DNA from: Nitrospirales bacterium
GTDB lineage: Bacteria; Nitrospirota; Nitrospiria; Nitrospirales; UBA8639
NCBI GenBank assembly: GCA_963422365.1
Contig: OY729426.1
Location: forward strand, 704,001 to 768,000
Direction of reading: 5' to 3'
Length of the DNA: 64,000 bases
The notes beneath the pieces were generated by a model. The model saw only the letters and a list, made by a program, of their open reading frames with translations, was not told where the DNA came from and did not search any database. Positions 50,903 through 64,000 of the stretch are shown piece after piece. How positions within the stretch are numbered: the first letter of the stretch is position 1; each line of letters begins with the position of its first letter. The translations under genes and the position numbers were made by a program.

Positions 50903-52138
50903 ATGGATTTATTTGACATCCTCGCCGTGGTACTCACTCTGACTGCCGGATTCTCGTATCTCAACTGCCGGTTCGTTGGATTACCAGTCACCATCGGCGT
51001 GATGGTGATTGCCTTAGCGGTTTCTCTCCTGCTGCAGGGGATTGATCTCTTGGGGTATCACCTGGAGGCCCATGCAGCCGGGTGGCTTCAATCAATCGAC
51101 TTTAATCAGACGCTGCTTCACGGCATGTTGAGTTTTTTGCTCTTTGCCGGAGCCTTGCACGTGAATCTCAACGATCTGTTCAACCAAAAATGGACCATCG
51201 GGTCGTTGGCCACCGTCGGCATCCTGCTCTCGACCGTGTTGGTCGGGACCTTCACGTATGAGGTGTTGGCCCTGATCGGCATTCCGCTTCCCTATCTCAC
51301 CTGCCTGGTTTTTGGAGCCTTGATTTCTCCGACTGATCCCATTGCGGTGTTGAGCATCTTGAAAAACGCCAAAGCTCCCAAAAGCTTGGAAGTGAAGATT
51401 ACCGGAGAATCGCTCTTTAACGATGGCGTGGGCGTCGTGGTCTTTGTAGTCCTGGCTGAAGTGGCGGCTGGAACCCACGAACCCACCTTGACCCATATCG
51501 TGGGTCTGTTCGCCCAAGAAGCCGTGGGTGGACTCGTCTTTGGATTAGGATTGGGCTATCTGACCTATTGGCTCGTCAAAAGCATCGACAATTATCAAGT
51601 CGAAGTCATGATTACCCTGGCTGCCGTGACCGGCGGCTATGCGTTGGCCAGCGCGCTCCACCTTTCCGGTCCCCTTGCTGTGGTGGTGGCCGGGTTGCTG
51701 GTGGGCAATCAGGGTCGAGTGTTGGGGATGTCGGAGAAAACGCGGGAGCATCTTGATACATTTTGGGAACTGGTCGATGAAATCTTGAACGCGGTCCTGT
51801 TTGTCTTGATCGGCCTGGAAGTGCTGGTTCTCACGTTTACCCAGGAATATCTCCTCGCAAGCGCGGTGATGATTCCTCTGATTCTCCTGTCGCGGCTTGC
51901 GGCGATTGGGCTGCCCCTTGCGCTTCTGCGTCGCGTGCGATCATTCACCCCCTGGGCCACGTGGTTGATGACGTGGGGAGGCTTGCGTGGAGGCATCAGC
52001 GTTGCCCTGGCCTTGTCACTCCCCACCGGACCAGAACGAGACGTCATCCTGGCGATGACCTACGTGGTGGTCGTCTTCTCCATCGTGGTCCAGGGGCTGA
52101 CCATGGAAAAGCTGGTCAAAGCCCTGATCCCCCGTTGA
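50903..52138 (+). CDS. Na+/H+ antiporter, CPA1/NhaP family
   Basis: 'ISPTDPIAV', 'GESLFNDG', 'WGGLRGGISVAL'. Confidence 0.94.
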   Translation: MDLFDILAVVLTLTAGFSYLNCRFVGLPVTIGVMVIALAVSLLLQGIDLLGYHLEAHAAGWLQSIDFNQTLLHGMLSFLLFAGALHVNLNDLFNQKWTIGSLATVGILLSTVLVGTFTYEVLALIGIPLPYLTCLVFGALISPTDPIAVLSILKNAKAPKSLEVKITGESLFNDGVGVVVFVVLAEVAAGTHEPTLTHIVGLFAQEAVGGLVFGLGLGYLTYWLVKSIDNYQVEVMITLAAVTGGYALASALHLSGPLAVVVAGLLVGNQGRVLGMSEKTREHLDTFWELVDEILNAVLFVLIGLEVLVLTFTQEYLLASAVMIPLILLSRLAAIGLPLALLRRVRSFTPWATWLMTWGGLRGGISVALALSLPTGPERDVILAMTYVVVVFSIVVQGLTMEKLVKALIPR

Positions 52139-52237
52139 GTGAAAGAGGAATGCCACCCACAAGAAAGAGCATCCTGCATAGGCAATGTTGAAGACAGGAA
52201 CAACTTCGTGAACTTCGGCAACGACACGGATGAAATT

Positions 52238-52426
52238 TTGAAAAATAGGGACGGGAACACTTCGGTCACCCCTGCAACGGTCCTACTCCATCGGCGGATC
52301 GGCACCTCGCCCGCTCCCCGGATGTTGACACCATACGAAATCGACTTGCTACGGCAAAGCAAGCGAGAAATCGACCAAGTCGAACACGAAGTCTTCGCGC
52401 GCAAAAACAAGAGATCGCAAACCTGA
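52238..52426 (+). CDS. Small hypothetical protein
   Basis: Helical C-terminus 'MLTPYEIDLLRQSKREIDQVEHEVF'; start uncertain. Confidence 0.35.
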   Translation: MKNRDGNTSVTPATVLLHRRIGTSPAPRMLTPYEIDLLRQSKREIDQVEHEVFARKNKRSQT

Positions 52427-52523
52427 AGCGCGTTTGCAAGACGGTTTTCGCAGTGTTCAACCGCAGCCCAGTTGTGATAAAGTGGATGGAAGGATGAGAG
52501 GGTCGTATGAGAGGGTCGTGATC

Positions 52524-52681
52524 GTGAATGACGATTTCAACGCAGATTTCGAGAAACTCATGGGGTTTCCTCCGTTCGATTGGCAGAAATGCTTTTTGCC
52601 ACAATTCTTTCGTCAAGAGCCATATTCCTTCCGTGCTCGATCCCGATGAGTCTCGGCAAAGCTTCGGTCATGGCGATCTGA
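52524..52681 (+). pseudogene. N-terminal relic of a second type I-G Cas3
   Basis: 'DFNADFEKLMGFPPFDWQK' (Q motif); across frameshifts 'HIPSVLD/PMSLGKASVMAI*', a decayed 'DIPTGLGKT' Walker A. Confidence 0.7.
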
Positions 52682-52721
52682 TATCTGTTCCTGAAGACCG
52701 AGGATAGAATACATCGCTGTC

Positions 52722-55700
52722 ATGAATGCGTTTGACCATCTCTTCACCAAAATTACTGGGTATGACAAGGCGTATCAGTGGCAAGTGGAACTTGCGAGTC
52801 CAACCGACTGCGGGAATCGCCTGATTTGCATTCCGACCGGCTTTGGCAAGACCCTGGGCGTTCTCGCAACCTGGGTGTGGCATCGCGTACACAACCCCAG
52901 TGACACTTGGCCGCGCCGTCTGGTCTGGTGTCTGCCCATGCGGGTGCTGGTCGAGCAGACGGAAAGCGAAGTCCGCGCGGCGCTCGACCGTCTGGGGCTG
53001 CTATGGGATGGGAAAAGCCCTCACGACGGCAAGGTTGGCGTTCACCTGCTGATGGGCGGTGCCGACGCCGGCCAATGGCACCTCTATCCGGAATGCGACG
53101 CCGTGCTGATCGGGACGCAGGACATGCTGCTTTCACGAGCCATGAACCGGGGCTATGCGAGCCCCCGGGCGCGCTGGCCCATGGAGTTCGGGCTGCTGAA
53201 CCAGGATGCCCTGTGGGTGATGGACGAGGTGCAGTTGATGGATGTGGGCCTTGCCACCTCAGGACAACTTCAGGTGTTTCGGGGCGATGACCAAGCCGCC
53301 AAGAAGTCGTTGCGGCCCTGCTTCACTTGGTGGATGAGCGCAACGTTGCAGCGCACTTGGCTGGAAAAGAGCCCGGACACGGCCGACTTGACCGCTGAGC
53401 TCGCCCGGAAGACGCACGGCATTGGCTCCAAGGATCGGGTGGGCCGCCTATGGAATGACGTGATCAAGCCTTGGGAAGCCGTTCCGTTCACCAATCCGCA
53501 GGAGCTCGCTGAGGATCTGTCCCAACGTCACCGTGATCTTGGTTGCGGAAAGAAGGGGCCGACGCTGGTTGTGCTCAATACGGTGGAGCGGGCCGTTGCA
53601 GTCTGGACGGCGCTTCGGCGGGACAGGACGCTGCGGGACGCGGATACGGACATTCGCTTGACGCACAGCCGCTTCCGCCCCGTCGAACGCCAAGCTTGGC
53701 GCGCAGAATTCCTGAACCGCGAGGCTTGCAGCCCGGGAACGAATCGCATCATCGTTTCCACCCAGGTCGTCGAGGCGGGCGTGGACATCTCGGCATCACT
53801 GCTGGTCACCGAGCTGGCACCCTGGCCAAGTTTGGTGCAGCGGTTCGGCCGGTGCGCACGGTGGGGTGGAATGGGTCGGGTCGTCGTTGCGGACTTCGGG
53901 CACGACAGCGACAAGAAAGCCGCTCCCTACTCAGAGGATGAGCTCGATGCCGCGTGTGAAGCCTGCAAGGATCTGCCGTACGTTGGGCCCATCCATCTCG
54001 AATGCTTCGAGGATGCGCATGAAGCGTTGCTGCCGCGCCTCTATCCCTATGAACCCAGGCACTTGTTGCTGCGCCACGAATTGGACGAACTGTTCGACAC
54101 TTCTCCAGATTTGTCCGGGGCGGACATCGATATCAGCCGTTTCATACGCTCTGGCGACGAACGCGACGTGCAGGTCTTTTGGGCCGATGTCGAAGACAAG
54201 TCGCATCCAGCATCGAACCTGAAGCCGAAGCGCGACGAGCTTTGCAGCGTACCCTTCCTCAAGGCTCGCGAATGGCTATGCGCATCACCGAAGTCGGAGA
54301 AGCTGAAACCCGACGCTCACGCATGGGTCTGGGACTGGCTTGACCGCAAGTGGCGCCGTGCCGGACGCCGTGACCTCCATCCGGGCCAGACGGTGCTGGT
54401 TGACAGCGGAGTGGGGGGCTACGACCGTGCTCGAGGCTGGGACCCGAATTCCAAGGCTCCGGTCGAGCCAGTGAGCCTCGTGGACGAGGAGCCCACTGGT
54501 CACCGCCCTTGCTGGAAACGCGACGGCGACGGCTGGCTTCCGAGCGAGCGTCGCATTCGCAAGCTTCCGCCCGAGGACCTCGCCGATGACGCTGAAGAAG
54601 ATGAATCGCTGAGTGTGTCCGGTTGGCAGACCATCGCCAGCCACGGCCTGCAGGTGGGCGAGGAGGTCGAATGCATTGCCAAGGGGGTTGCGCCATCGGA
54701 AGCTCGGCTGCTGCACTTGGCCGGACGCTGGCACGATCTCGGCAAGGCGCATCCGGCTTTTCAAGGCTCCATTCAGGCCCACGACCGCCCTGAACGAGAC
54801 GACATCGCCAAAGCGCCGGACCGCGCTTGGCCGTGCAGCCCGAACAACATGTACCGCATCGATGTTACGGACCAACGGCGCGGATTTCGCCACGAACTGG
54901 CGAGCGCACTCGGCCTGTTCGGCGTTCTGCAACGACATGATTCGCAGCATCCGGCGCTGCTCGGCCCGTGGCGCGAGTGGTTCGACGCCATGGGAGATGC
55001 CCATACGACGGAAGATTCCACTTGCGGCGCGGTCACTGCCAAGCCCACGGCCATCGAACAGGAGATACTCGATCTCGCCGCCGCCGAGTTCGACTTGCTC
55101 GCCTATCTGGTTTGCGCCCACCACGGCAAGGTGCGGATGGCTTGGCACGCAAGCCCCGCCGACCAGAAGGCGGATGATCGCCGGCTGCGCATACGAGGCG
55201 TTCGGGAGGACGACATATTGCCGCCGCTGCCATTGGCCGACGCCGCCGGCAAGTTCCAGGAACTGCCCGCGACGGCGCTGGACCTGTCTCCTTCCGAAGC
55301 GGGTTTGAGCGTTCGAACCGGCAGGAGCTGGACCGAGCGCGTGCTGAATCTCGTCGAGCGCTTCGGACCGTTCACGTTGGCCTGGCTGGAAGCTCTGCTG
55401 CGCGCCGCCGATCAGCGCGCCTCGATGAAAGTGATTACGGATACGCTGTTACAGGAACAGGAGAACAACGATGCCGGACAATCATTGGGTAAAAGCCATC
55501 GAACACTGGCGCCTCCTGCCGGAGGAGGAGCGTCAACGACGCCACCAGGAGTCGATCCCCCGTCACGTCGCCAACTCCATGGCGATGGAGGGCGAGCCGG
55601 TGGACGAAGCGTGGATTCGGGAACGACTCGCCCTCCGCATTCGGCCACCCGCTACGTCGAAACCGCCCTCGGCATCCTGAGCTATCAGGAACTCGCCCCG

Positions 55701-56219
55701 CTGCTCGCGGAGCGAGTAGCCGATGCCGAATTCGCCATTTCGGGCCGGAAATTTGCGCATCAGCCCATTCACGACCTTCTGCTTGATCTTCACCGGCACA
55801 TCTGCGCCGACTTGATACCGGACATGGCGGGGCGTTGGCGACTTCGAGACGTTCGCGTCGGCGAACATCAAGCGCCGTCGCATTGGCAGGTTCCCATACT
55901 GATGCGCAACTATGCCGCCGACCTCGATGTGCGACTAGCGAACCTGGACGAGGATCCCGGCGAACGGCTCATCGATGACCTCGCCTTTGCCGAAGGCCGT
56001 CTCCTGCACATCCACCCGTTCGAGGATTTCAACGGGCGGGTTTCCCGCCTGTTCCTCGTCGAACTGCTCTACCGGTTGAATCTGCCGGTGATCGATCCCG
56101 CCGCGTCGTCGGAGGAGGAGACCAAGCGCTACTTTTCTGCCTTGCAGGCGTATGACCGATGCGACCCGCGCCCTCTTACTGCAATCTGGTGCCTCCGTTT
56201 CACACAGGGAAGCTCCTGA
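52722..56219 (+). CDS. cas3: Type I-G Cas3 (helicase + C-terminal HD) fused in-frame to a Fic domain
   Basis: 'IPTGFGKT', 'DEVQ', 'MSAT', 'STQVVEAGVDIS', 'QRFGRCAR'; HD 'WHDLGK', 'HHG', 'RAADQRAS'; then Fic 'HPFEDFNGRVSR' at 56013-56048. Confidence 0.92.
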   Translation: MNAFDHLFTKITGYDKAYQWQVELASPTDCGNRLICIPTGFGKTLGVLATWVWHRVHNPSDTWPRRLVWCLPMRVLVEQTESEVRAALDRLGLLWDGKSPHDGKVGVHLLMGGADAGQWHLYPECDAVLIGTQDMLLSRAMNRGYASPRARWPMEFGLLNQDALWVMDEVQLMDVGLATSGQLQVFRGDDQAAKKSLRPCFTWWMSATLQRTWLEKSPDTADLTAELARKTHGIGSKDRVGRLWNDVIKPWEAVPFTNPQELAEDLSQRHRDLGCGKKGPTLVVLNTVERAVAVWTALRRDRTLRDADTDIRLTHSRFRPVERQAWRAEFLNREACSPGTNRIIVSTQVVEAGVDISASLLVTELAPWPSLVQRFGRCARWGGMGRVVVADFGHDSDKKAAPYSEDELDAACEACKDLPYVGPIHLECFEDAHEALLPRLYPYEPRHLLLRHELDELFDTSPDLSGADIDISRFIRSGDERDVQVFWADVEDKSHPASNLKPKRDELCSVPFLKAREWLCASPKSEKLKPDAHAWVWDWLDRKWRRAGRRDLHPGQTVLVDSGVGGYDRARGWDPNSKAPVEPVSLVDEEPTGHRPCWKRDGDGWLPSERRIRKLPPEDLADDAEEDESLSVSGWQTIASHGLQVGEEVECIAKGVAPSEARLLHLAGRWHDLGKAHPAFQGSIQAHDRPERDDIAKAPDRAWPCSPNNMYRIDVTDQRRGFRHELASALGLFGVLQRHDSQHPALLGPWREWFDAMGDAHTTEDSTCGAVTAKPTAIEQEILDLAAAEFDLLAYLVCAHHGKVRMAWHASPADQKADDRRLRIRGVREDDILPPLPLADAAGKFQELPATALDLSPSEAGLSVRTGRSWTERVLNLVERFGPFTLAWLEALLRAADQRASMKVITDTLLQEQENNDAGQSLGKSHRTLAPPAGGGASTTPPGVDPPSRRQLHGDGGRAGGRSVDSGTTRPPHSATRYVETALGILSYQELAPLLAERVADAEFAISGRKFAHQPIHDLLLDLHRHICADLIPDMAGRWRLRDVRVGEHQAPSHWQVPILMRNYAADLDVRLANLDEDPGERLIDDLAFAEGRLLHIHPFEDFNGRVSRLFLVELLYRLNLPVIDPAASSEEETKRYFSALQAYDRCDPRPLTAIWCLRFTQGSS
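55471..55680 (+). CDS. Putative VbhA/FicA-like antitoxin nested in the +1 frame of cas3-fic
   Basis: AGGAG RBS at 55459-55463; 69 aa helical protein; 'NSMAMEG' fits the Fic-inhibitory (S/T)xxxE(G/N) motif; directly precedes the Fic domain. Confidence 0.72.
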   Translation: MPDNHWVKAIEHWRLLPEEERQRRHQESIPRHVANSMAMEGEPVDEAWIRERLALRIRPPATSKPPSAS

Positions 56220-58498
56220 TGATCCACGTCCATACACTCGACGGCTGCGCACCCGCGCCGCTGGCGCATTACCTCAAGGCGCTCGGCATCCTGCGGTTAG
56301 TCGCCGAGCAGGCCGACAGCGATGTGCGCGGGTGGTGGGCGGGAGATCGTTTTCGGCTGGCGACGAAGCTGGGCAGGGAGGAGCTGGAGGGGTTCTTTTT
56401 GAAGGACTACCAGCCCACGCCGCTCGTGTCTCCGTGGAACAAGGGTGCAGGTTTCTTCTTCGAGAACGACCCGGGAGTATCTCCCCTGGAGAAATCGACA
56501 AGCCCTCGATTCGCAGCCTTCCGTTCGGGCATCAAGGCAAGCCGATCACAACTTGAAAAACTGTCAGAGGTGGACCAGAAGGTCCGCGACATCAAAGCGG
56601 AAACCAAAATTAGGGGAATGAGCAAAGCGGAAAGAACCCGGATGCGGAGCTCTGAGGAATACAAGCAACGACTTCGAGAAGCAGAGAAGAGGTTCAAGCA
56701 GATCAAGGCGGATCTGATCCCCAGTTTCCGCTTGAATTGGCGGGGAACTCATCGAGAGTGGATGGATTCCGCGATGGTGTTGGGAGACGACGGAACTCCG
56801 AAATATCCTGCGCTGCTTGGCACCGGGGGCAACGACGGTCGACTCGATTTTACCAACAACTTCATGAAACGGCTTGGAGAAGTGTTCGATCTCGGCAGCG
56901 ATGACGGTGCGCCGCGGTCTGCAGCAACGTCTTGGGTGTCCGGGGCCCTTGGGGGCTCGCCGGTTCCGGGCAATCTGGCAGGACAACCTGTCGGTCAGTA
57001 CCTGCCAGGTACGGCCGGGGGCGCGAACAATGGGAATGGCCCCGATTCAGACAGTATGGTGAATCCGGTGGATTTCATCCTGATGCTCGAAGGCGCCATC
57101 GTATTTGCGTCGCACGTCTCCCGACGTTTCGGCTCGTTGGAATCCTCCCGCGCCGCTTCGCCGTTCGCGGTCAACGCCTGCGGAGCAGCATACGCGAGCG
57201 CGTCGACGGATGATGAGAGCGCGAGGGGCGAACAATGGATGCCGCTATGGTCGCGGCCGTCAACTTACGGGGAACTGCGCCGTCTTCTGGCCGAGGGCCG
57301 CGCTCAGATCGGCACTCGAAGCGCAAGAGAACCGCTGGATCTTGCTCGAGCGGTCAAACGTCTGGGCACCGCACGCGGTATTCGAAAATTCCAACGTTAC
57401 GGCTACATTGAGCGCAACGGGCAATCCAATCTGGCGGTTCCCCTGGGTCGTTTCGACGTGGCGGAACGTCAATCCGAACATCTAGTCTGCATGGAAGATC
57501 TCCATCTCTGGTTGCGGCGTCTGCGTCAAGAGGCGCGCGGCCAGAACGCACCAGCTCGCTTATTCATTGCGGAAAAAAGTCTTGCGGATGCGCTCTTTGC
57601 TGTCACTGAACACTCCGGCACCCCGGAATGCTGGCAACGCATTCTTGCGCAGTTGGCGGAAATCGAAGGAATCATGGCCCACGGCAGCGGCTTCAACGCC
57701 CAGACCATTCCGCGTCTGTGCCCGGAATGGGTGTCCGCGAGCGATGACGGAACGCCGGAATTCCGCTTGGCTCTCGCCTTTGCATTGCAGGCGCAAGATT
57801 TCCACCGGTTATGGAAGACGCCAATCGATCCGATTCGGCGTCACTGGCTTCCCCTTGACCGAAAGCAGCCATCGCGCTTTGCCACGACCGGCACAGGCGC
57901 CACAACAAGGCTCGATTTGCAGCCGGAAGTGGTCATGCACGGCCGCCGGGGGCTTGACGACGCCATCGCCCTGGTCGAGCGGCGTCTGGTGGAGGCTTCC
58001 CAGCGCGCAGGCCGCCATCTGCCGCTTAAGGCAGCGCCGTGTGCGGCCGCTGGCATAGCCGACCTTGCGGCGTTGCTCTATGGCCATGTGGATCTGGATC
58101 GCACCCTGGCTCTGGCGCGCGCCCTCATGGCGCTGGATCGCAAGGCATGGGTTGAGCGCCACATACCCATCGAGTTCCCTCGCGCTTCGGATTGGTCGGA
58201 CGATGCCTGGCTGGCGATCCGTCTGTGTACGCTGCCTTGGCCGCTCAAGACGCGCTCCGGGTTCAAGCTCGACATCGGAACCAACCGGGCCATCGTCCGC
58301 CGTCTTGCCGTCGGCGACGCTGCCTCCGCCGTCACCATTGCGTTACGCCGTCTGGGTGCGGCCGGCGTCCGCTGCACCGTCCGTGCCGGTGCAGCGTCTC
58401 CCGAGACTTCTCGGTTGTGGGCCGCAGCCCTGGCTTTCCCCATCACCCAAGGAACCGCTAGGCGGTTTCTCTATTGCTTAGATCCGAATAAGGAGTAA
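56219..58498 (+). CDS. csx17: Type I-G large subunit Cas8g1/Csx17
   Basis: 'LDGCAPAPLAHYLKALGILRLVAEQAD', 'LLGTGGNDGRLDF', 'NPVDFILMLEG', 'WMPLW'; TGATG coupling to cas3-fic. Confidence 0.92.
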   Translation: MIHVHTLDGCAPAPLAHYLKALGILRLVAEQADSDVRGWWAGDRFRLATKLGREELEGFFLKDYQPTPLVSPWNKGAGFFFENDPGVSPLEKSTSPRFAAFRSGIKASRSQLEKLSEVDQKVRDIKAETKIRGMSKAERTRMRSSEEYKQRLREAEKRFKQIKADLIPSFRLNWRGTHREWMDSAMVLGDDGTPKYPALLGTGGNDGRLDFTNNFMKRLGEVFDLGSDDGAPRSAATSWVSGALGGSPVPGNLAGQPVGQYLPGTAGGANNGNGPDSDSMVNPVDFILMLEGAIVFASHVSRRFGSLESSRAASPFAVNACGAAYASASTDDESARGEQWMPLWSRPSTYGELRRLLAEGRAQIGTRSAREPLDLARAVKRLGTARGIRKFQRYGYIERNGQSNLAVPLGRFDVAERQSEHLVCMEDLHLWLRRLRQEARGQNAPARLFIAEKSLADALFAVTEHSGTPECWQRILAQLAEIEGIMAHGSGFNAQTIPRLCPEWVSASDDGTPEFRLALAFALQAQDFHRLWKTPIDPIRRHWLPLDRKQPSRFATTGTGATTRLDLQPEVVMHGRRGLDDAIALVERRLVEASQRAGRHLPLKAAPCAAAGIADLAALLYGHVDLDRTLALARALMALDRKAWVERHIPIEFPRASDWSDDAWLAIRLCTLPWPLKTRSGFKLDIGTNRAIVRRLAVGDAASAVTIALRRLGAAGVRCTVRAGAASPETSRLWAAALAFPITQGTARRFLYCLDPNKE

Positions 58499-58503
58499 TA
58501 ACT

Positions 58504-59535
58504 ATGACTATTGACTTGAAGCCACTGGAAAACGCCAATCGTTTGCTGTTCAGGATTCCCTTGGAGCCGTTGCAGGGAGGCCGATTTCAACCCACCGGAT
58601 TCCCCTCCCTGGGTGCTGCAGAGTTTCAGACTGTCAACGGCAAAAGCCTTTTGGTGGAGTCAGCGCAGAGCATGGCCAACCGCTTGGAGATGACCGTTTG
58701 GGATACTGCTAAGAACAATGTTAAGGAGGATCTGAACGGGCTGTCGCATGTGCGCGTAACCCGAAATGGCGCGTTTCTGACCGATACGATCTTGGATTCG
58801 CATCGGTTAAACAGTCCCTACCTGCTCGAAGGCAAGAAGGATAGGACGTTCCTCAATACGCTCAAGGATGAACTCGGAGTATTGGAGACTGGCCCAATTG
58901 ATCGTCAAAAGCTTGCCGAGGTGCTGTTGAAATACGACGTCAACTCGCTGATACACGGGGTGTTTCTGGCGAAAAAGGAGTTGGCGGGTGGCCGCCTGCG
59001 CATCGCCCGCGCTTTGTCGGCTTTCATCGAAGCGGACAATGTCCAGGTCGCGGCCTCTGGCGGCGTGAAGAATGACCACGTCAATCCATCGGGCGACGCC
59101 AAGGCAGGTTTCGGCAACGTTCCATTCGCACGGGACGAATACACCGCTGAGTCGATCACCCTATACGTCAATCTGGACTTGGTGCAGATCCGGGGCTATG
59201 GGCTGGGAGATGCAGTAGAACGCCTTCTGATTCTGTTGTCGCTATACAAGCTGCGCGCCCTGACCGGCGCAGGGATGCGCTTACGCACGGCCTGCGACCT
59301 GAAGGTCGTAGACAAAGATATCCAGGCGACGATGTCGGAGAGATGGGCGCTTCCCGGACTCGAAGACTTGGCAAGCGAAGTAACGTCCGCTATAGCCAAA
59401 TGCAAAGACTCCGATGGCAAAGACCGAATGAAGGTGACCCCCGTAACATTCGAAGACGAACTCAAGAAGGGTAAGGCGGAAGGCCAGGCAGGGCTGGACG
59501 ACGACGCCAACGACCACGAGGATGCCAGCGAGTAG
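58504..59535 (+). CDS. csb1: Type I-G backbone Cas7g/Csb1
   Basis: 'RFQPTGFP', 'LLVESAQSMANRLE', 'HRLNSPY', 'SGGVKND', 'LRTACDL'. Confidence 0.92.
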   Translation: MTIDLKPLENANRLLFRIPLEPLQGGRFQPTGFPSLGAAEFQTVNGKSLLVESAQSMANRLEMTVWDTAKNNVKEDLNGLSHVRVTRNGAFLTDTILDSHRLNSPYLLEGKKDRTFLNTLKDELGVLETGPIDRQKLAEVLLKYDVNSLIHGVFLAKKELAGGRLRIARALSAFIEADNVQVAASGGVKNDHVNPSGDAKAGFGNVPFARDEYTAESITLYVNLDLVQIRGYGLGDAVERLLILLSLYKLRALTGAGMRLRTACDLKVVDKDIQATMSERWALPGLEDLASEVTSAIAKCKDSDGKDRMKVTPVTFEDELKKGKAEGQAGLDDDANDHEDASE

Positions 59536-61627: not shown

Positions 61628-63220
61628 TCAGGGTACAGCGGGAACGGCCCGGCGGAGTTTCTGCATCACTTTAAAAAAGCCATGCCGACCGGTGACGGCA
61701 GCTGCGGCTGAGACCCCGCCCATGAGCGCACCGACAATGCCCACTGCGCAGACGTCCGACCCACTGAGGTATAACCCGGGCACCGGTGTTTGAGGTGTGA
61801 GCCAATCCAGCCCGTAGCGCGCCGGCACGGCCGGCAGGCCGTACATCATGCCGTGCTCTCTGCTGGTAAAGTTCCGGATCGTCAGCGGTGTCGACAACTC
61901 CTGGAAGGCAATCAACTCGCTAAACCCGGGATAATGGCTCTCGACCAGTTTCACCATGCCGTCGGCAATGGTCCGTTTCAATCCGTCATACGCCTTGCCC
62001 CGATTCCTCCAGGGTTTGTCCTGCCATTGCGTAAAATGAGCATACTCCGTAAAACAGATGATCTCGGCCGTGGCGCTCTTTGCATCCGAGTTTTTCAGGG
62101 AGGGAAAGGAGAGATAACAGGCCCGGCAGCGCCCTTCCAGCAGCGCGTTGGTGTCATGGAGCAACCCATCGTGATCGTACCCTGTAAAAATCCAGTGATT
62201 TTCTCCGTTGAAACCCAAGGCGCGCGGGTCATCCTTGAATCCGATATACAGGGTCACGGCGCTGCATGCGCACCTGAAACGATGCAACTCATCCAGGAAG
62301 GGGATGGGAATGGATGCCGGCAGGAGTTTGTTATATGTCAGGTCTGCGCCCACGTTGGAAATCACGATGGGGGCGGAAAACGTGAGCGACTCCCGTCTTG
62401 CGCCCTTGATTGTTTCCACGGCCACGCCTACCGCCCGATTATCATGAACAAGAATCCTGACGGCCTCATGGTTGACCAAACACCGCCCGCCTCGGGCTTC
62501 AATCACGGGCAGAATGGAACGCGCCACGCGCGTGCTGCCGCCCTTTGGAAACCAGGCCCCGTTCAGGAAATGATGGACAATCAACGCATGGATCGCGAAC
62601 GCGCTGTCGGCAGGTGGTAGGCCGTAATCGCCCCACTGCGAGGCGAGTACCGCCTTCAATTGCGGATCATTAAAATACTTGTCCAGAATCGTTCTGGTTG
62701 TCGAGAGGGCCAGCTTTTTGCCTGGCAGGTTGCTCAATCGGATAAACGGTTGCACCCAGGCCGGCATAACGGGCCTCAGGAACTGTCTCTGCGACCATGC
62801 CGCCGCACGGTGAATGGCCTTGAAATAGGCGCGAATGGGCGCGTTCTCGTCGGGAAATTGCTTGACCAGGGCTGCCGTATAGGCCGCTTCATCGTCCGCC
62901 ACCTCAAAGGTAAAATCAGGATACACGAAACGCTCAAACACCGTGGGCAGTTTCTCCCAGTCCAGCCGGCCGTCGGAGATAAAGTCGAACACCTGCCTTG
63001 GCAGGTCACCGCGTTGCATCTCGCCGACATAATGCAGCCCGACGTCAAAATGATAATCGCCCCGCCGGAATTCATGAGTGAGCCCGCCTGGGATCCAGTG
63101 CTTCTCGAGGATCAGCACCTTTTTATGGTTTATCTTTGCCAGCAACGCGGCACTGGTCAGACCGCCGATGCCGGATCCGATGACGATAACGTCGTACGTA
63201 TGCTCAGCCTGCAGCGCCAT
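61628..63220 (-). CDS. Phytoene desaturase / retinol saturase-like FAD oxidoreductase
   Basis: 'VIGSGIGGL', 'FDVGLHY', 'STPLT', 'LYLSGSD'. Confidence 0.88.
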   Translation of the reverse strand: MALQAEHTYDVIVIGSGIGGLTSAALLAKINHKKVLILEKHWIPGGLTHEFRRGDYHFDVGLHYVGEMQRGDLPRQVFDFISDGRLDWEKLPTVFERFVYPDFTFEVADDEAAYTAALVKQFPDENAPIRAYFKAIHRAAAWSQRQFLRPVMPAWVQPFIRLSNLPGKKLALSTTRTILDKYFNDPQLKAVLASQWGDYGLPPADSAFAIHALIVHHFLNGAWFPKGGSTRVARSILPVIEARGGRCLVNHEAVRILVHDNRAVGVAVETIKGARRESLTFSAPIVISNVGADLTYNKLLPASIPIPFLDELHRFRCACSAVTLYIGFKDDPRALGFNGENHWIFTGYDHDGLLHDTNALLEGRCRACYLSFPSLKNSDAKSATAEIICFTEYAHFTQWQDKPWRNRGKAYDGLKRTIADGMVKLVESHYPGFSELIAFQELSTPLTIRNFTSREHGMMYGLPAVPARYGLDWLTPQTPVPGLYLSGSDVCAVGIVGALMGGVSAAAAVTGRHGFFKVMQKLRRAVPAVP

Positions 63221-63221
63221 A

Positions 63222-63695
63222 TCAGACCGGTTGATCAACCATCCAATAGACTGAGAGAAGGGGGAAGATCGCCGCGCTCGTGCCGAAGCCGTTCCAGATG
63301 CGGGTCAAACGCCGGTATTGCGCCGGGATCACCCCGCCAGCGCTAAAGGCCCGTGCCAACCTGGTTTGTTTGATCTGCACCGGCACCAATCTGCTGACCC
63401 AGATAATCCCGGACGAGATAATCAGTATCCGGCCATTCGCTAGCCAGGCCAGGCCCGGCGCATTGTCCATCAAGGCATGCACCATACTCCCCTGTAGCAA
63501 CCAGCAGGGCGCGACCCCCAGGGCGGTAAAGACAGAATCCGTCAGGGTCACCTGACGTTGGGCAAACGCGACGATTGTCGCATCACGGGTTTGGTCGGCT
63601 ATGATCTTCCACCGCGTCGTAACGATCATGTTGCCGAGAAACAGCATGACACCGAGCATAGGCAGGCTCTTGAATCATACATCGTGATCGGCCAT
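63222..63695 (-). pseudogene. DUF2269-like membrane protein with early in-frame stop
   Basis: ATG at 63695 reads MADHDV*FKSLPMLGVMLFLGNMIVT...; several hydrophobic helices follow. Confidence 0.55.
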
Positions 63696-63697
63696 GG

Positions 63698-64000
63698 TCA
63701 GCGAGTCCTCAGATTGACGTTCACAGTCTTGGCGGGGACGCTGAACGCAAACCGCGCCTCTTCATAGCTGGCCGGACCGAAGAAAGCCTGGGGGTTGTTC
63801 GAAAAACCATAGCCTTCCTTCGGGATACCGGTAAAATTTTTGTCCAGTTTGCCGTTGTTATTTTCATCGTGGTAGAGCTTGATGGCGTATTCCCCATAGG
63901 GCAGCCGTTCGAATACATACTCGGCCTGCCCGTCATGCACCTCGGCAGTCACGGACTGATAGGCCTGTTTACTATCTTCGTCCCCCCGCCCGTGGTCTGC
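63698..64000 (-). CDS. DUF2141-family protein (5' end outside window)
   Basis: 'YAIKLYHDENNNGKLDKNFTGIPKEGYGFSNN...GPASYEEARF'. Confidence 0.88.
   Translation of the reverse strand, partial: ADHGRGDEDSKQAYQSVTAEVHDGQAEYVFERLPYGEYAIKLYHDENNNGKLDKNFTGIPKEGYGFSNNPQAFFGPASYEEARFAFSVPAKTVNVNLRTR

What the first reader, a model, noticed from the sequence alone, without database searches (positions are those of the whole stretch)
55459..55680. Overprinted antitoxin gene hidden in the Cas3-Fic linker
Seen: in the +1 frame of the linker is a 69-aa ORF with its own AGGAG RBS and the motif SMAMEG (55576-55593). The Cas3-frame translation of the same DNA looks like low-complexity off-frame sequence. Known: class I Fic proteins are inhibited by small upstream antitoxins (VbhA/FicA) through an (S/T)xxxE(G/N) helix. 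Inference: a whole ficA-ficT module was captured between cas3 and cas8g, giving dual-coding DNA. An in-frame GTG at 55611 could also yield a standalone Fic. Annotation pipelines would probably discard this nested ORF.
Basis: partly seen in the sequence, partly recalled or inferred. Interest (0 to 1): 0.88.

Follow-up and report, generated by a model that had tools for sequence, protein, structure and literature searches.

The report
Antitoxin gene hidden inside Cas3-toxin fusion
A CRISPR DNA-cutting gene (type I-G cas3) here carries a Fic toxin-like domain on its tail, and the DNA joining the two also encodes, in another reading frame, a conserved small protein predicted to bind and likely silence that domain, so the immune gene likely carries its own toxin-antidote pair.

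Summary
Confirmed and strengthened. Window 55471-55680 is a 69-codon ORF with an AGGAG site and SMAMEG, nested in the +1 frame of a 1165-aa type I-G Cas3-Fic ORF. Selection acts on the small protein (dN/dS 0.20, against 1.44 in the Cas3 frame). The Cas3 frame is kept free of stops: 0 of 238 stop-creating synonymous sites are used in 23 loci with an intact Fic (about 42 expected), while 13 of 20 loci without an intact Fic have stops. 117 of 119 scored Cas3-Fic fusion proteins keep the hidden ORF's imprint. A complex model scores 0.91 against 0.00 for the best control and puts Ser36 on the Fic arginines, as in VbhA/VbhT. The same pair occurs as two separate genes on a Rhodococcus plasmid and nested in a restriction-modification-Fic fusion. 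None of 7 nested copies is in the gene-called protein collection. The Fic motif is non-canonical (HPFxDFNGR), and the internal GTG is not conserved. Expression, toxicity and inhibition are untested. I found no report of this arrangement in the papers searched.

The parts
52722..56219 (+). cas3g-fic: one ORF, 1165 aa (helicase, HD nuclease, linker, Fic domain)
   Evidence: TIGR02621 Cas3g residues 4-901, E 1.9e-222; Pfam Fic residues 1018-1116, E 1.5e-9; 185 related long proteins, best 120 listed
55459..55463 (+). AGGAG ribosome-binding-like site of the nested gene
   Evidence: sequence; -7.4 kcal/mol, similar sites across 23 loci
55471..55680 (+). nested 69-aa FicA/VbhA-like antitoxin candidate, +1 frame relative to cas3g-fic
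55576..55593 (+). SMAMEG, matching the (S/T)xxxE(G/N) inhibitory-helix motif
   Evidence: 112 of 120 close homologues have it exactly; Glu in 23 of 23 and full motif in 22 of 23 intact-Fic loci
55461..55652 (+). Cas3-frame linker (residues 914-977), predicted disordered, kept free of stop codons
   Evidence: pLDDT < 50; 0 of 238 stop-creating sites used
55611..55613 (+). in-frame GTG, the likely ancestral Fic start; formed by the Ala47-Trp48 codons of the nested gene; not conserved
   Evidence: start codon in 13 of 23 loci; matches the called start of 72 of 120 stand-alone relatives
55644..56216 (+). Fic domain (residues 975-1165)
   Evidence: FICD structures E 2e-11; dN/dS 0.17; PADLOC PDC-S04 E 2.5e-19, SoFic E 3.6e-10
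56013..56048 (+). Fic signature HPFEDFNGRVSR (F in place of the first Gly)
   Evidence: sequence; the F is invariant in 23 aligned loci
56219..58498 (+). cas8g1 (Csx17); its ATG overlaps the cas3g-fic stop
   Evidence: TIGR04113 E 5.8e-176; junctions
58504..59535 (+). cas7g (Csb1)
   Evidence: TIGR02570
59522..61234 (+). csb2 (Cas5/6g)
   Evidence: TIGR02165

Best explanation
A small conserved gene sits in the +1 frame of a Cas3g-linker-Fic fusion gene, and its product is predicted to bind and likely inhibit the Fic domain, as FicA antitoxins do. Shown: both frames are under selection (amino acids in the small frame, absence of stops in the Cas3 frame), and the Fic domain is under purifying selection. 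Inferred origin: a ficA-ficT operon whose genes overlapped by about 70 nt came to lie at the 3' end of cas3g, and the cas3 frame read through the antitoxin DNA into the Fic gene. Inferred mechanism: one mRNA yields Cas3g-Fic by read-through and the antitoxin from its own RBS. The antitoxin docks on Fic helix 1 and sets its SxxxEG helix on the active-site arginines, which keeps the Cas3-tethered Fic off. If antitoxin supply stops (phage shut-off of host expression, or loss or silencing of the locus), the freed Fic would modify a host target and arrest growth, acting as a guard or back-up for the CRISPR system.
For: Selection on the small protein: dN/dS 0.20 over codons 1-55 and 0.12 in the core, against 1.44 and 1.83 in the Cas3 frame (11 loci). 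Read-through is kept: 0 of 238 stop-creating sites used in 23 intact-Fic loci, against 119 of 641 in their single-coding Fic domains and 25 of 233 in 20 loci without an intact Fic. About 42 stops are expected; for 8 Cas3-fused loci differing at >= 50% of four-fold sites, 11.6 are expected and P is about 2e-6. The count is zero in all three segments of the overlap. Fic dN/dS is 0.17. 117 of 119 scored fusions carry the imprint. The complex scores 0.91 against 0.00 for the best control; the mark was reached by 116 of 157 solved and 2 of 215 mismatched pairs; runs agree in >= 90% of contacts; partner pLDDT >= 78. Ser36 contacts R1 and R2, and most contacts are on helix 1, the mode described for VbhA/EcFicA/BiaA (PMC5033356, PMC8401265, passages). 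The pair occurs as separate adjacent genes on a Rhodococcus plasmid. A phage homologue is annotated 'VbhA-like antitoxin' (E 2e-3). Both fusions that deleted the nested gene in frame have an altered Fic motif (HPL, YPF). Cas3 is a stable subunit of the I-G effector (bioRxiv 10.1101/2022.08.08.503147, passages).
Against: Translation, binding, toxicity and rescue were not measured. The Fic motif has F at G1, which PMC8401265 section 3.3 says is required for steric reasons, so the enzyme may not be an AMPylase. The Glu40-R2 pair is not among the 25 lowest-error pairs listed, though Glu40 is in the interface. The complex resembles solved FicA/FicT pairs, so the pass may come from memory. No sequence or fold match to solved FicA proteins was found. 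Glu is replaced by Ala in 24 of 149 distant rows. Many copies of the small gene persist with no intact Fic (20 of 43 loci), so it may have another role. The loci are related, and the stop statistics treat them as only roughly independent. The trigger step has no direct evidence.
Confidence: 0.62

Rival explanations
1. The module is a passenger: an ordinary selfish toxin-antitoxin pair that landed at the end of cas3g. The frame stays open only because this is how Fic is expressed and how translation is coupled to cas8g. Tethering to Cas3 has no function.
For: The same nesting occurs with unrelated hosts: a type IIG restriction-modification-Fic fusion (L068) and stand-alone Fic ORFs with an upstream ATG (L048, L050, L053). 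The Fic stop overlaps or lies within a few bases of the cas8g start in the 17 junctions printed. The linker has no amino-acid constraint.
Against: The fusion is kept across at least 119 clusters at 90% identity and several phyla. Linker length is held near 71-74 residues in 83 of 107 measured, although the nested gene itself sets this length. Fic is under purifying selection.
Confidence: 0.25
2. The Fic domain is a non-toxic regulator or a different enzyme (non-canonical motif), for example one that modifies Cas3/Cascade or a phage protein, and the small protein is its chaperone or regulatory subunit rather than an antidote.
For: Invariant F at G1; Glu-to-Ala variants in the family; FicA homologues are proposed as chaperones for Bartonella Fic domains (PMC8401265, passages).
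Against: His, Asp, Asn, G2, R1 and R2 are kept. Glu is present in 23 of 23 intact-Fic loci. Both antitoxin-less fusions have an altered motif (only two cases).
Confidence: 0.1
3. The long ORF is incidental: Fic is made on its own from GTG 55611 (or through a frameshift from the small ORF), and the cas3 read-through is chance or an assembly error.
For: 72 of 120 related stand-alone Fic proteins are called from this position; the GTG is present in the window.
Against: No cas3 stop in 19 of 19 distinct cas3-adjacent loci. Zero stops also in the 5' third of the overlap, upstream of any such start (0 of 97). The site is not a start codon in 6 of 17 intact Cas3-fused loci. No indel is listed in three other runs.
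Confidence: 0.03

Closest known systems
Class I FicTA toxin-antitoxin modules (VbhA/VbhT, EcFicA/EcFicT)
   Same: Small helical protein with (S/T)xxxE(G/N) upstream of a Fic domain; predicted docking on Fic helix 1 with the motif serine at R2 (PMC5033356 and PMC8401265, passages).
   Different: The antitoxin gene is nested inside the toxin-bearing ORF; Fic is the C-terminal domain of Cas3g; the motif is HPFxDFNGR; no significant sequence or fold hit to solved FicA proteins. The Atlas gives YhfG (EcFicA) only as a lead at 0.82.
Type I-G CRISPR-Cas (Cas3g, Cas8g1, Cas7g, Csb2)
   Same: All four genes pass their NCBIfam cut-offs; a Cas1 match and a 26-repeat array lie just beyond the window.
   Different: Cas3g is extended by about 260 residues (linker plus Fic) and hosts a nested gene; 'Fic' does not occur in the I-G structure preprint.
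CreTA / CrePA CRISPR-linked toxin-antitoxin guards
   Same: A toxin-antitoxin pair inside a cas locus that could enforce its upkeep or give abortive back-up (PMC12737573, passages).
   Different: Those use RNA antitoxins and Cascade-mediated repression. This is a protein pair with the toxin-like domain fused to Cas3; no regulatory RNA was sought or found. 'Fic' does not occur in that review.
SoFic and PADLOC candidate PDC-S04
   Same: Fic-domain proteins listed among anti-phage systems; hits at E 3.6e-10 and 2.5e-19 (SoFic in bioRxiv 10.1101/2022.05.11.491447, passages).
   Different: SoFic is described as stand-alone, and the hits here are distant.

Membership tests
Class I FicTA module (antitoxin FicA) | Small separate protein encoded directly upstream of the Fic coding sequence | tested here: met
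   separate adjacent genes in Rhodococcus
Class I FicTA module (antitoxin FicA) | (S/T)xxxE(G/N) motif at the end of a helix | tested here: met
   SMAMEG; predicted helix 31-39; 22 of 23 intact loci; 90 of 149 distant rows
Class I FicTA module (antitoxin FicA) | Antitoxin binds Fic with the motif Ser and Glu on R2 | tested here: inconclusive
   Model only: 0.91 against 0.00; Ser36-R2 listed, Glu40 in the interface but the pair not listed; may pass from memory of solved pairs
Class I FicTA module (antitoxin FicA) | Sequence or fold homology to VbhA/EcFicA | tested here: inconclusive
   No PDB sequence or fold hit; YhfG lead 0.82; a depositor's label 'VbhA-like antitoxin' on a homologue
Class I FicTA module (toxin FicT) | Canonical HxFx(D/E)GNGRxxR motif of AMP transferases | tested here: not met
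   HPFEDFNGRVSR, G1 replaced by invariant F; other positions kept
Class I FicTA module (toxin FicT) | Growth inhibition by target modification, neutralised by FicA | not testable with these tools
   needs an experiment
Type I-G CRISPR-Cas | cas3g, cas8g, cas7g, csb2 | tested here: met
Type I-G CRISPR-Cas | Adaptation genes and array nearby | tested here: met
   Cas1 match at G000:C1:769651-770517 in a 579-aa frame; 26 repeats at C1:771166-772988
CreTA/CrePA | crRNA-like RNA antitoxin repressing a toxin promoter through Cascade | not tested
   No search for ectopic repeats was made; the antitoxin candidate here is a protein

The most novel reading that the evidence does not exclude
Cas3g-Fic is a CRISPR effector with a built-in kill switch. 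The Fic domain rides on Cascade-bound Cas3 and is released from its nested antitoxin upon target recognition, anti-CRISPR attack or phage shut-off, giving type I immunity an abortive or protein-modifying second arm. Nesting the antitoxin in the linker makes the toxin and its antidote genetically inseparable, and this design recurs on other defence genes such as type IIG restriction-modification.
Probability: 0.25. Interest if true: 0.92.

Novelty: new variant of a known kind. Interest (0 to 1): 0.77.

Why it matters
It is a clear case of a selected, fully nested bacterial gene that gene callers miss. It reveals a widespread Cas3-Fic fusion family whose control partner is invisible in annotations. 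If the Fic domain is active, a type I CRISPR nuclease carries a protein toxin-antitoxin switch, a protein-level counterpart of CreTA. It makes a direct test possible of how TA modules guard or back up CRISPR immunity. Anyone cloning or recoding these Cas3g genes would lose the hidden gene by codon optimisation.

Tried and rejected
Chance ORF: rejected. Assembly artefact: rejected (19 of 19 cas3-adjacent loci open). Amino-acid selection on the Cas3-frame linker: rejected (dN/dS 1.44). Conserved internal Fic start: not supported (13 of 23; a notebook entry says 9 lack it, the correct count is 10). Frameshift from the small ORF into Fic as the reason for the open frame: does not explain the zero stops in the 5' third. 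No RNA holder was listed for the stretch, so expression is untested. No significant match of the small protein in Pfam, NCBIfam, PHROGs, PADLOC or PDB; 22 of 50 members hit DUF4172 weakly (best E 0.002); the fold searches gave nothing above Z 3.4. Viral contig scans were empty. The Fic profile was not found in 400 and 300 genomes sampled from the phyla of G301 and G302, and this Cas3g was not found with this query in 40 genomes of the window's family. No sigma-70-like promoter was found in 52000-56400. The fold search of the full model returned only Cas3/helicase rows. Earlier scan findings: none returned. Rows dropped before counting: L032-L043 (weak 15-20-residue hits), duplicates L027, L029, L030, L074, L075, L077, and P0140, which failed the motif pattern. 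In one search the rows for L047 and L052 had a wrong offset, corrected.

Full report
Observation. Window 52722-56219 is one 1165-codon ORF: type I-G Cas3g over residues 4-901 (TIGR02621, E 1.9e-222) and a Fic domain at the C terminus (Pfam, E 1.5e-9). It is followed by cas8g1, cas7g and csb2. A Cas1 match and a 26-repeat array lie just past the window end. Inside it, offset +1, is a 69-codon ORF at 55471-55680 with AGGAG at 55459-55463 and SMAMEG at 55576-55593. AlphaFold2 on a 79-row alignment folds Cas3 and Fic and leaves residues 914-977, the overlap, without structure.

The small ORF is a real gene family. It has 124 homologues at E <= 0.01 among 125 candidates and 237 clusters at 50% identity. 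In 50 aligned members the run ANSMAM is invariant; 112 of 120 close homologues read SMAMEG. In 11 Cas3-fused loci, pooled pairwise dN/dS over codons 1-55 is 0.20 in the small frame and 1.44 in the Cas3 frame. In the last 14 codons, which overlap the Fic N terminus, the order flips (0.68 and 0.33). The SD-like site is kept (median -7.4 kcal/mol over 23 loci). Gene callers miss nested copies: 0 of 7 are in the protein collection against 2 of 3 un-nested ones, although the window's own fusion is there (P0121).

The read-through is selected. Loci were fetched with the small protein as query, so not by their Cas3 frame. After dropping 12 weak hits and duplicates, 43 remained. In 19 of 19 distinct loci where this cas3g lies directly upstream, its frame is open across the small gene; 17 have an intact Fic and 2 a frameshifted one. 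A Cas3-frame stop arises when a small-gene codon ends in T before a codon starting AA, AG or GA. In the 23 loci with an intact Fic (judged downstream of the overlap), 0 of 238 such synonymous sites use T. The controls are 119 of 641 in the same loci's single-coding Fic domains and 25 of 233 in the 20 loci without an intact Fic; 13 of those 20 carry a stop. Locus-specific backgrounds predict about 42 stops. For 8 Cas3-fused loci differing at half or more of four-fold sites, 11.6 are expected and P is about 2e-6. This treats diverged loci as independent, and the background ORFs include some shadow frames, so it is approximate. The zero holds in each third of the overlap (0 of 97, 43 and 98). Fic itself has dN/dS 0.17. 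Among the best 120 of 185 long proteins found with the linker-Fic region, 117 of 119 scored linkers are compatible with the hidden ORF far above controls; this set is biased, because the query held the linker. The other two delete the nested gene in frame, and both have an altered Fic motif (HPL and YPF). HPL also occurs once with the gene present, so this is only a hint.

The small protein is the partner of this Fic family. On a Rhodococcus plasmid a homologue (SMAMEG) lies as a separate gene 36 nt before a Fic with the same DFNGR motif; 14 Rhodococcus plasmids have a hit to the small protein. A mycobacteriophage homologue is labelled 'VbhA-like antitoxin' by its depositors (E 2e-3). The complex model scores 0.91 against 0.00 for the best of 3 controls. 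That mark was reached by 116 of 157 solved and 2 of 215 mismatched pairs; the runs agree in at least 90% of contacts; partner pLDDT is at least 78. Contacts centre on the first Fic helix, and Ser36 touches both motif arginines; Glu40 is in the interface but its pair with R2 is not among those listed. This matches the mode described for VbhA, EcFicA and BiaA (PMC5033356 and PMC8401265, passages read), so the pass may reflect memory of solved pairs. No sequence or fold match to solved FicA proteins was found.

The nesting is wider than Cas3. L068 encodes a 1317-aa type IIG restriction-modification protein fused to Fic with the small gene nested in the same frame relation. L048, L050 and L053 have stand-alone Fic ORFs with an ATG 10-14 codons before the small gene, no start at the internal site, and 0 stops in the Fic frame against 7 in the third frame. 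All 41 related Fic proteins with long N-terminal extensions decode to the small protein. Against this, 72 of 120 related stand-alone Fic proteins are called from a start at the position of GTG 55611 (their DNA was not seen). That suggests the ancestral operon had a partial overlap with a start there. In the 23 intact loci that codon is a start in 13, and it is partly a by-product of the Trp48 codon. In a 43-row Fic tree the Cas3-fused rows group together with moderate support (89/91), apart from the RM-fused and stand-alone nested rows; I did not test the number of origins.

Mechanism. Shown: two selected frames and a conserved Fic domain at the tail of Cas3g. Predicted: binding of the small protein at the Fic active site. 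Inferred: the antitoxin, made from its own RBS on the same mRNA, holds the Cas3-tethered Fic off, and loss of supply would free it and arrest growth, guarding or backing up the CRISPR locus. Cas3 is a stable subunit of the I-G effector (bioRxiv 10.1101/2022.08.08.503147, passages), so Fic would ride on Cascade. The main doubts are two. The motif has F at G1, described as sterically required (PMC8401265, section 3.3 read), so the chemistry is open. The recurrence on unrelated host genes also fits a passenger module whose frame stays open for Fic expression and coupling to cas8g. No RNA run was available.

Novelty. Searches for Cas3 with Fic and type I-G or I-U, nested antitoxins, I-G papers, VbhA-like phage genes, Fic with restriction-modification and PDC-S04 showed no description of this arrangement. 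I saw only listings for most papers, and passages of PMC11065993, PMC12737573 and bioRxiv 10.1101/2022.05.11.491447 besides those above. The library lacks most subscription journals, and I read no supplements; large Cas-fusion surveys may list Cas3-Fic there. The parts are known, but the architecture (an antitoxin nested in the linker of a Cas3-toxin-domain fusion) appears undescribed. Verdict: real feature, new variant of a known kind, interest 0.77.

Noticed in passing
window 52139-52426 (+), conserved core about 52209-52410: Small ORF with no Pfam or NCBIfam hit that recurs beside type I-G loci in L002, L005, L010, L012 (twice), L017 (twice), L018 and L045/L071 at 50-65% identity.
   Followed up: partly
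window 52434-52649 (+): Short ORF resembling the 5' end of another cas3g (TIGR02621 E 0.23), also seen in L002 and L045; likely a relic.
   Followed up: partly
L071:12894-13291 (G237, same genus): A second, un-nested copy of the small gene with a broken fic lies upstream of the cas3g-fic operon; the window lacks it.
   Followed up: partly
L068:4671-8624 (-): Type IIG restriction-modification protein fused to Fic, with the small gene nested in the linker.
   Followed up: partly
L004, L005, L006, L010, L012, L015, L017: Un-nested or orphan copies of the small gene sit next to other, distant type I-G operons and arrays.
   Followed up: no
L076:2468-2677: Mycobacterium phage LilBib carries a homologue between lysin A and lysin B, with no Fic annotated in the stretch shown; it could be a phage-borne inhibitor of host Fic toxins (untested).
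   Followed up: no
window 61628-64000 (-) and beyond to G000:C1:768900: Unrelated genes on the opposite strand, including a 536-aa protein that looks like a flavin-dependent dehydrogenase (recalled resemblance, not scanned), separate csb2 from the cas1 gene and array.
   Followed up: no
protein P0455: The small-protein domain is fused in frame to a C-terminal part that resembles the end of Csb2 by eye; no Pfam hit.
   Followed up: no
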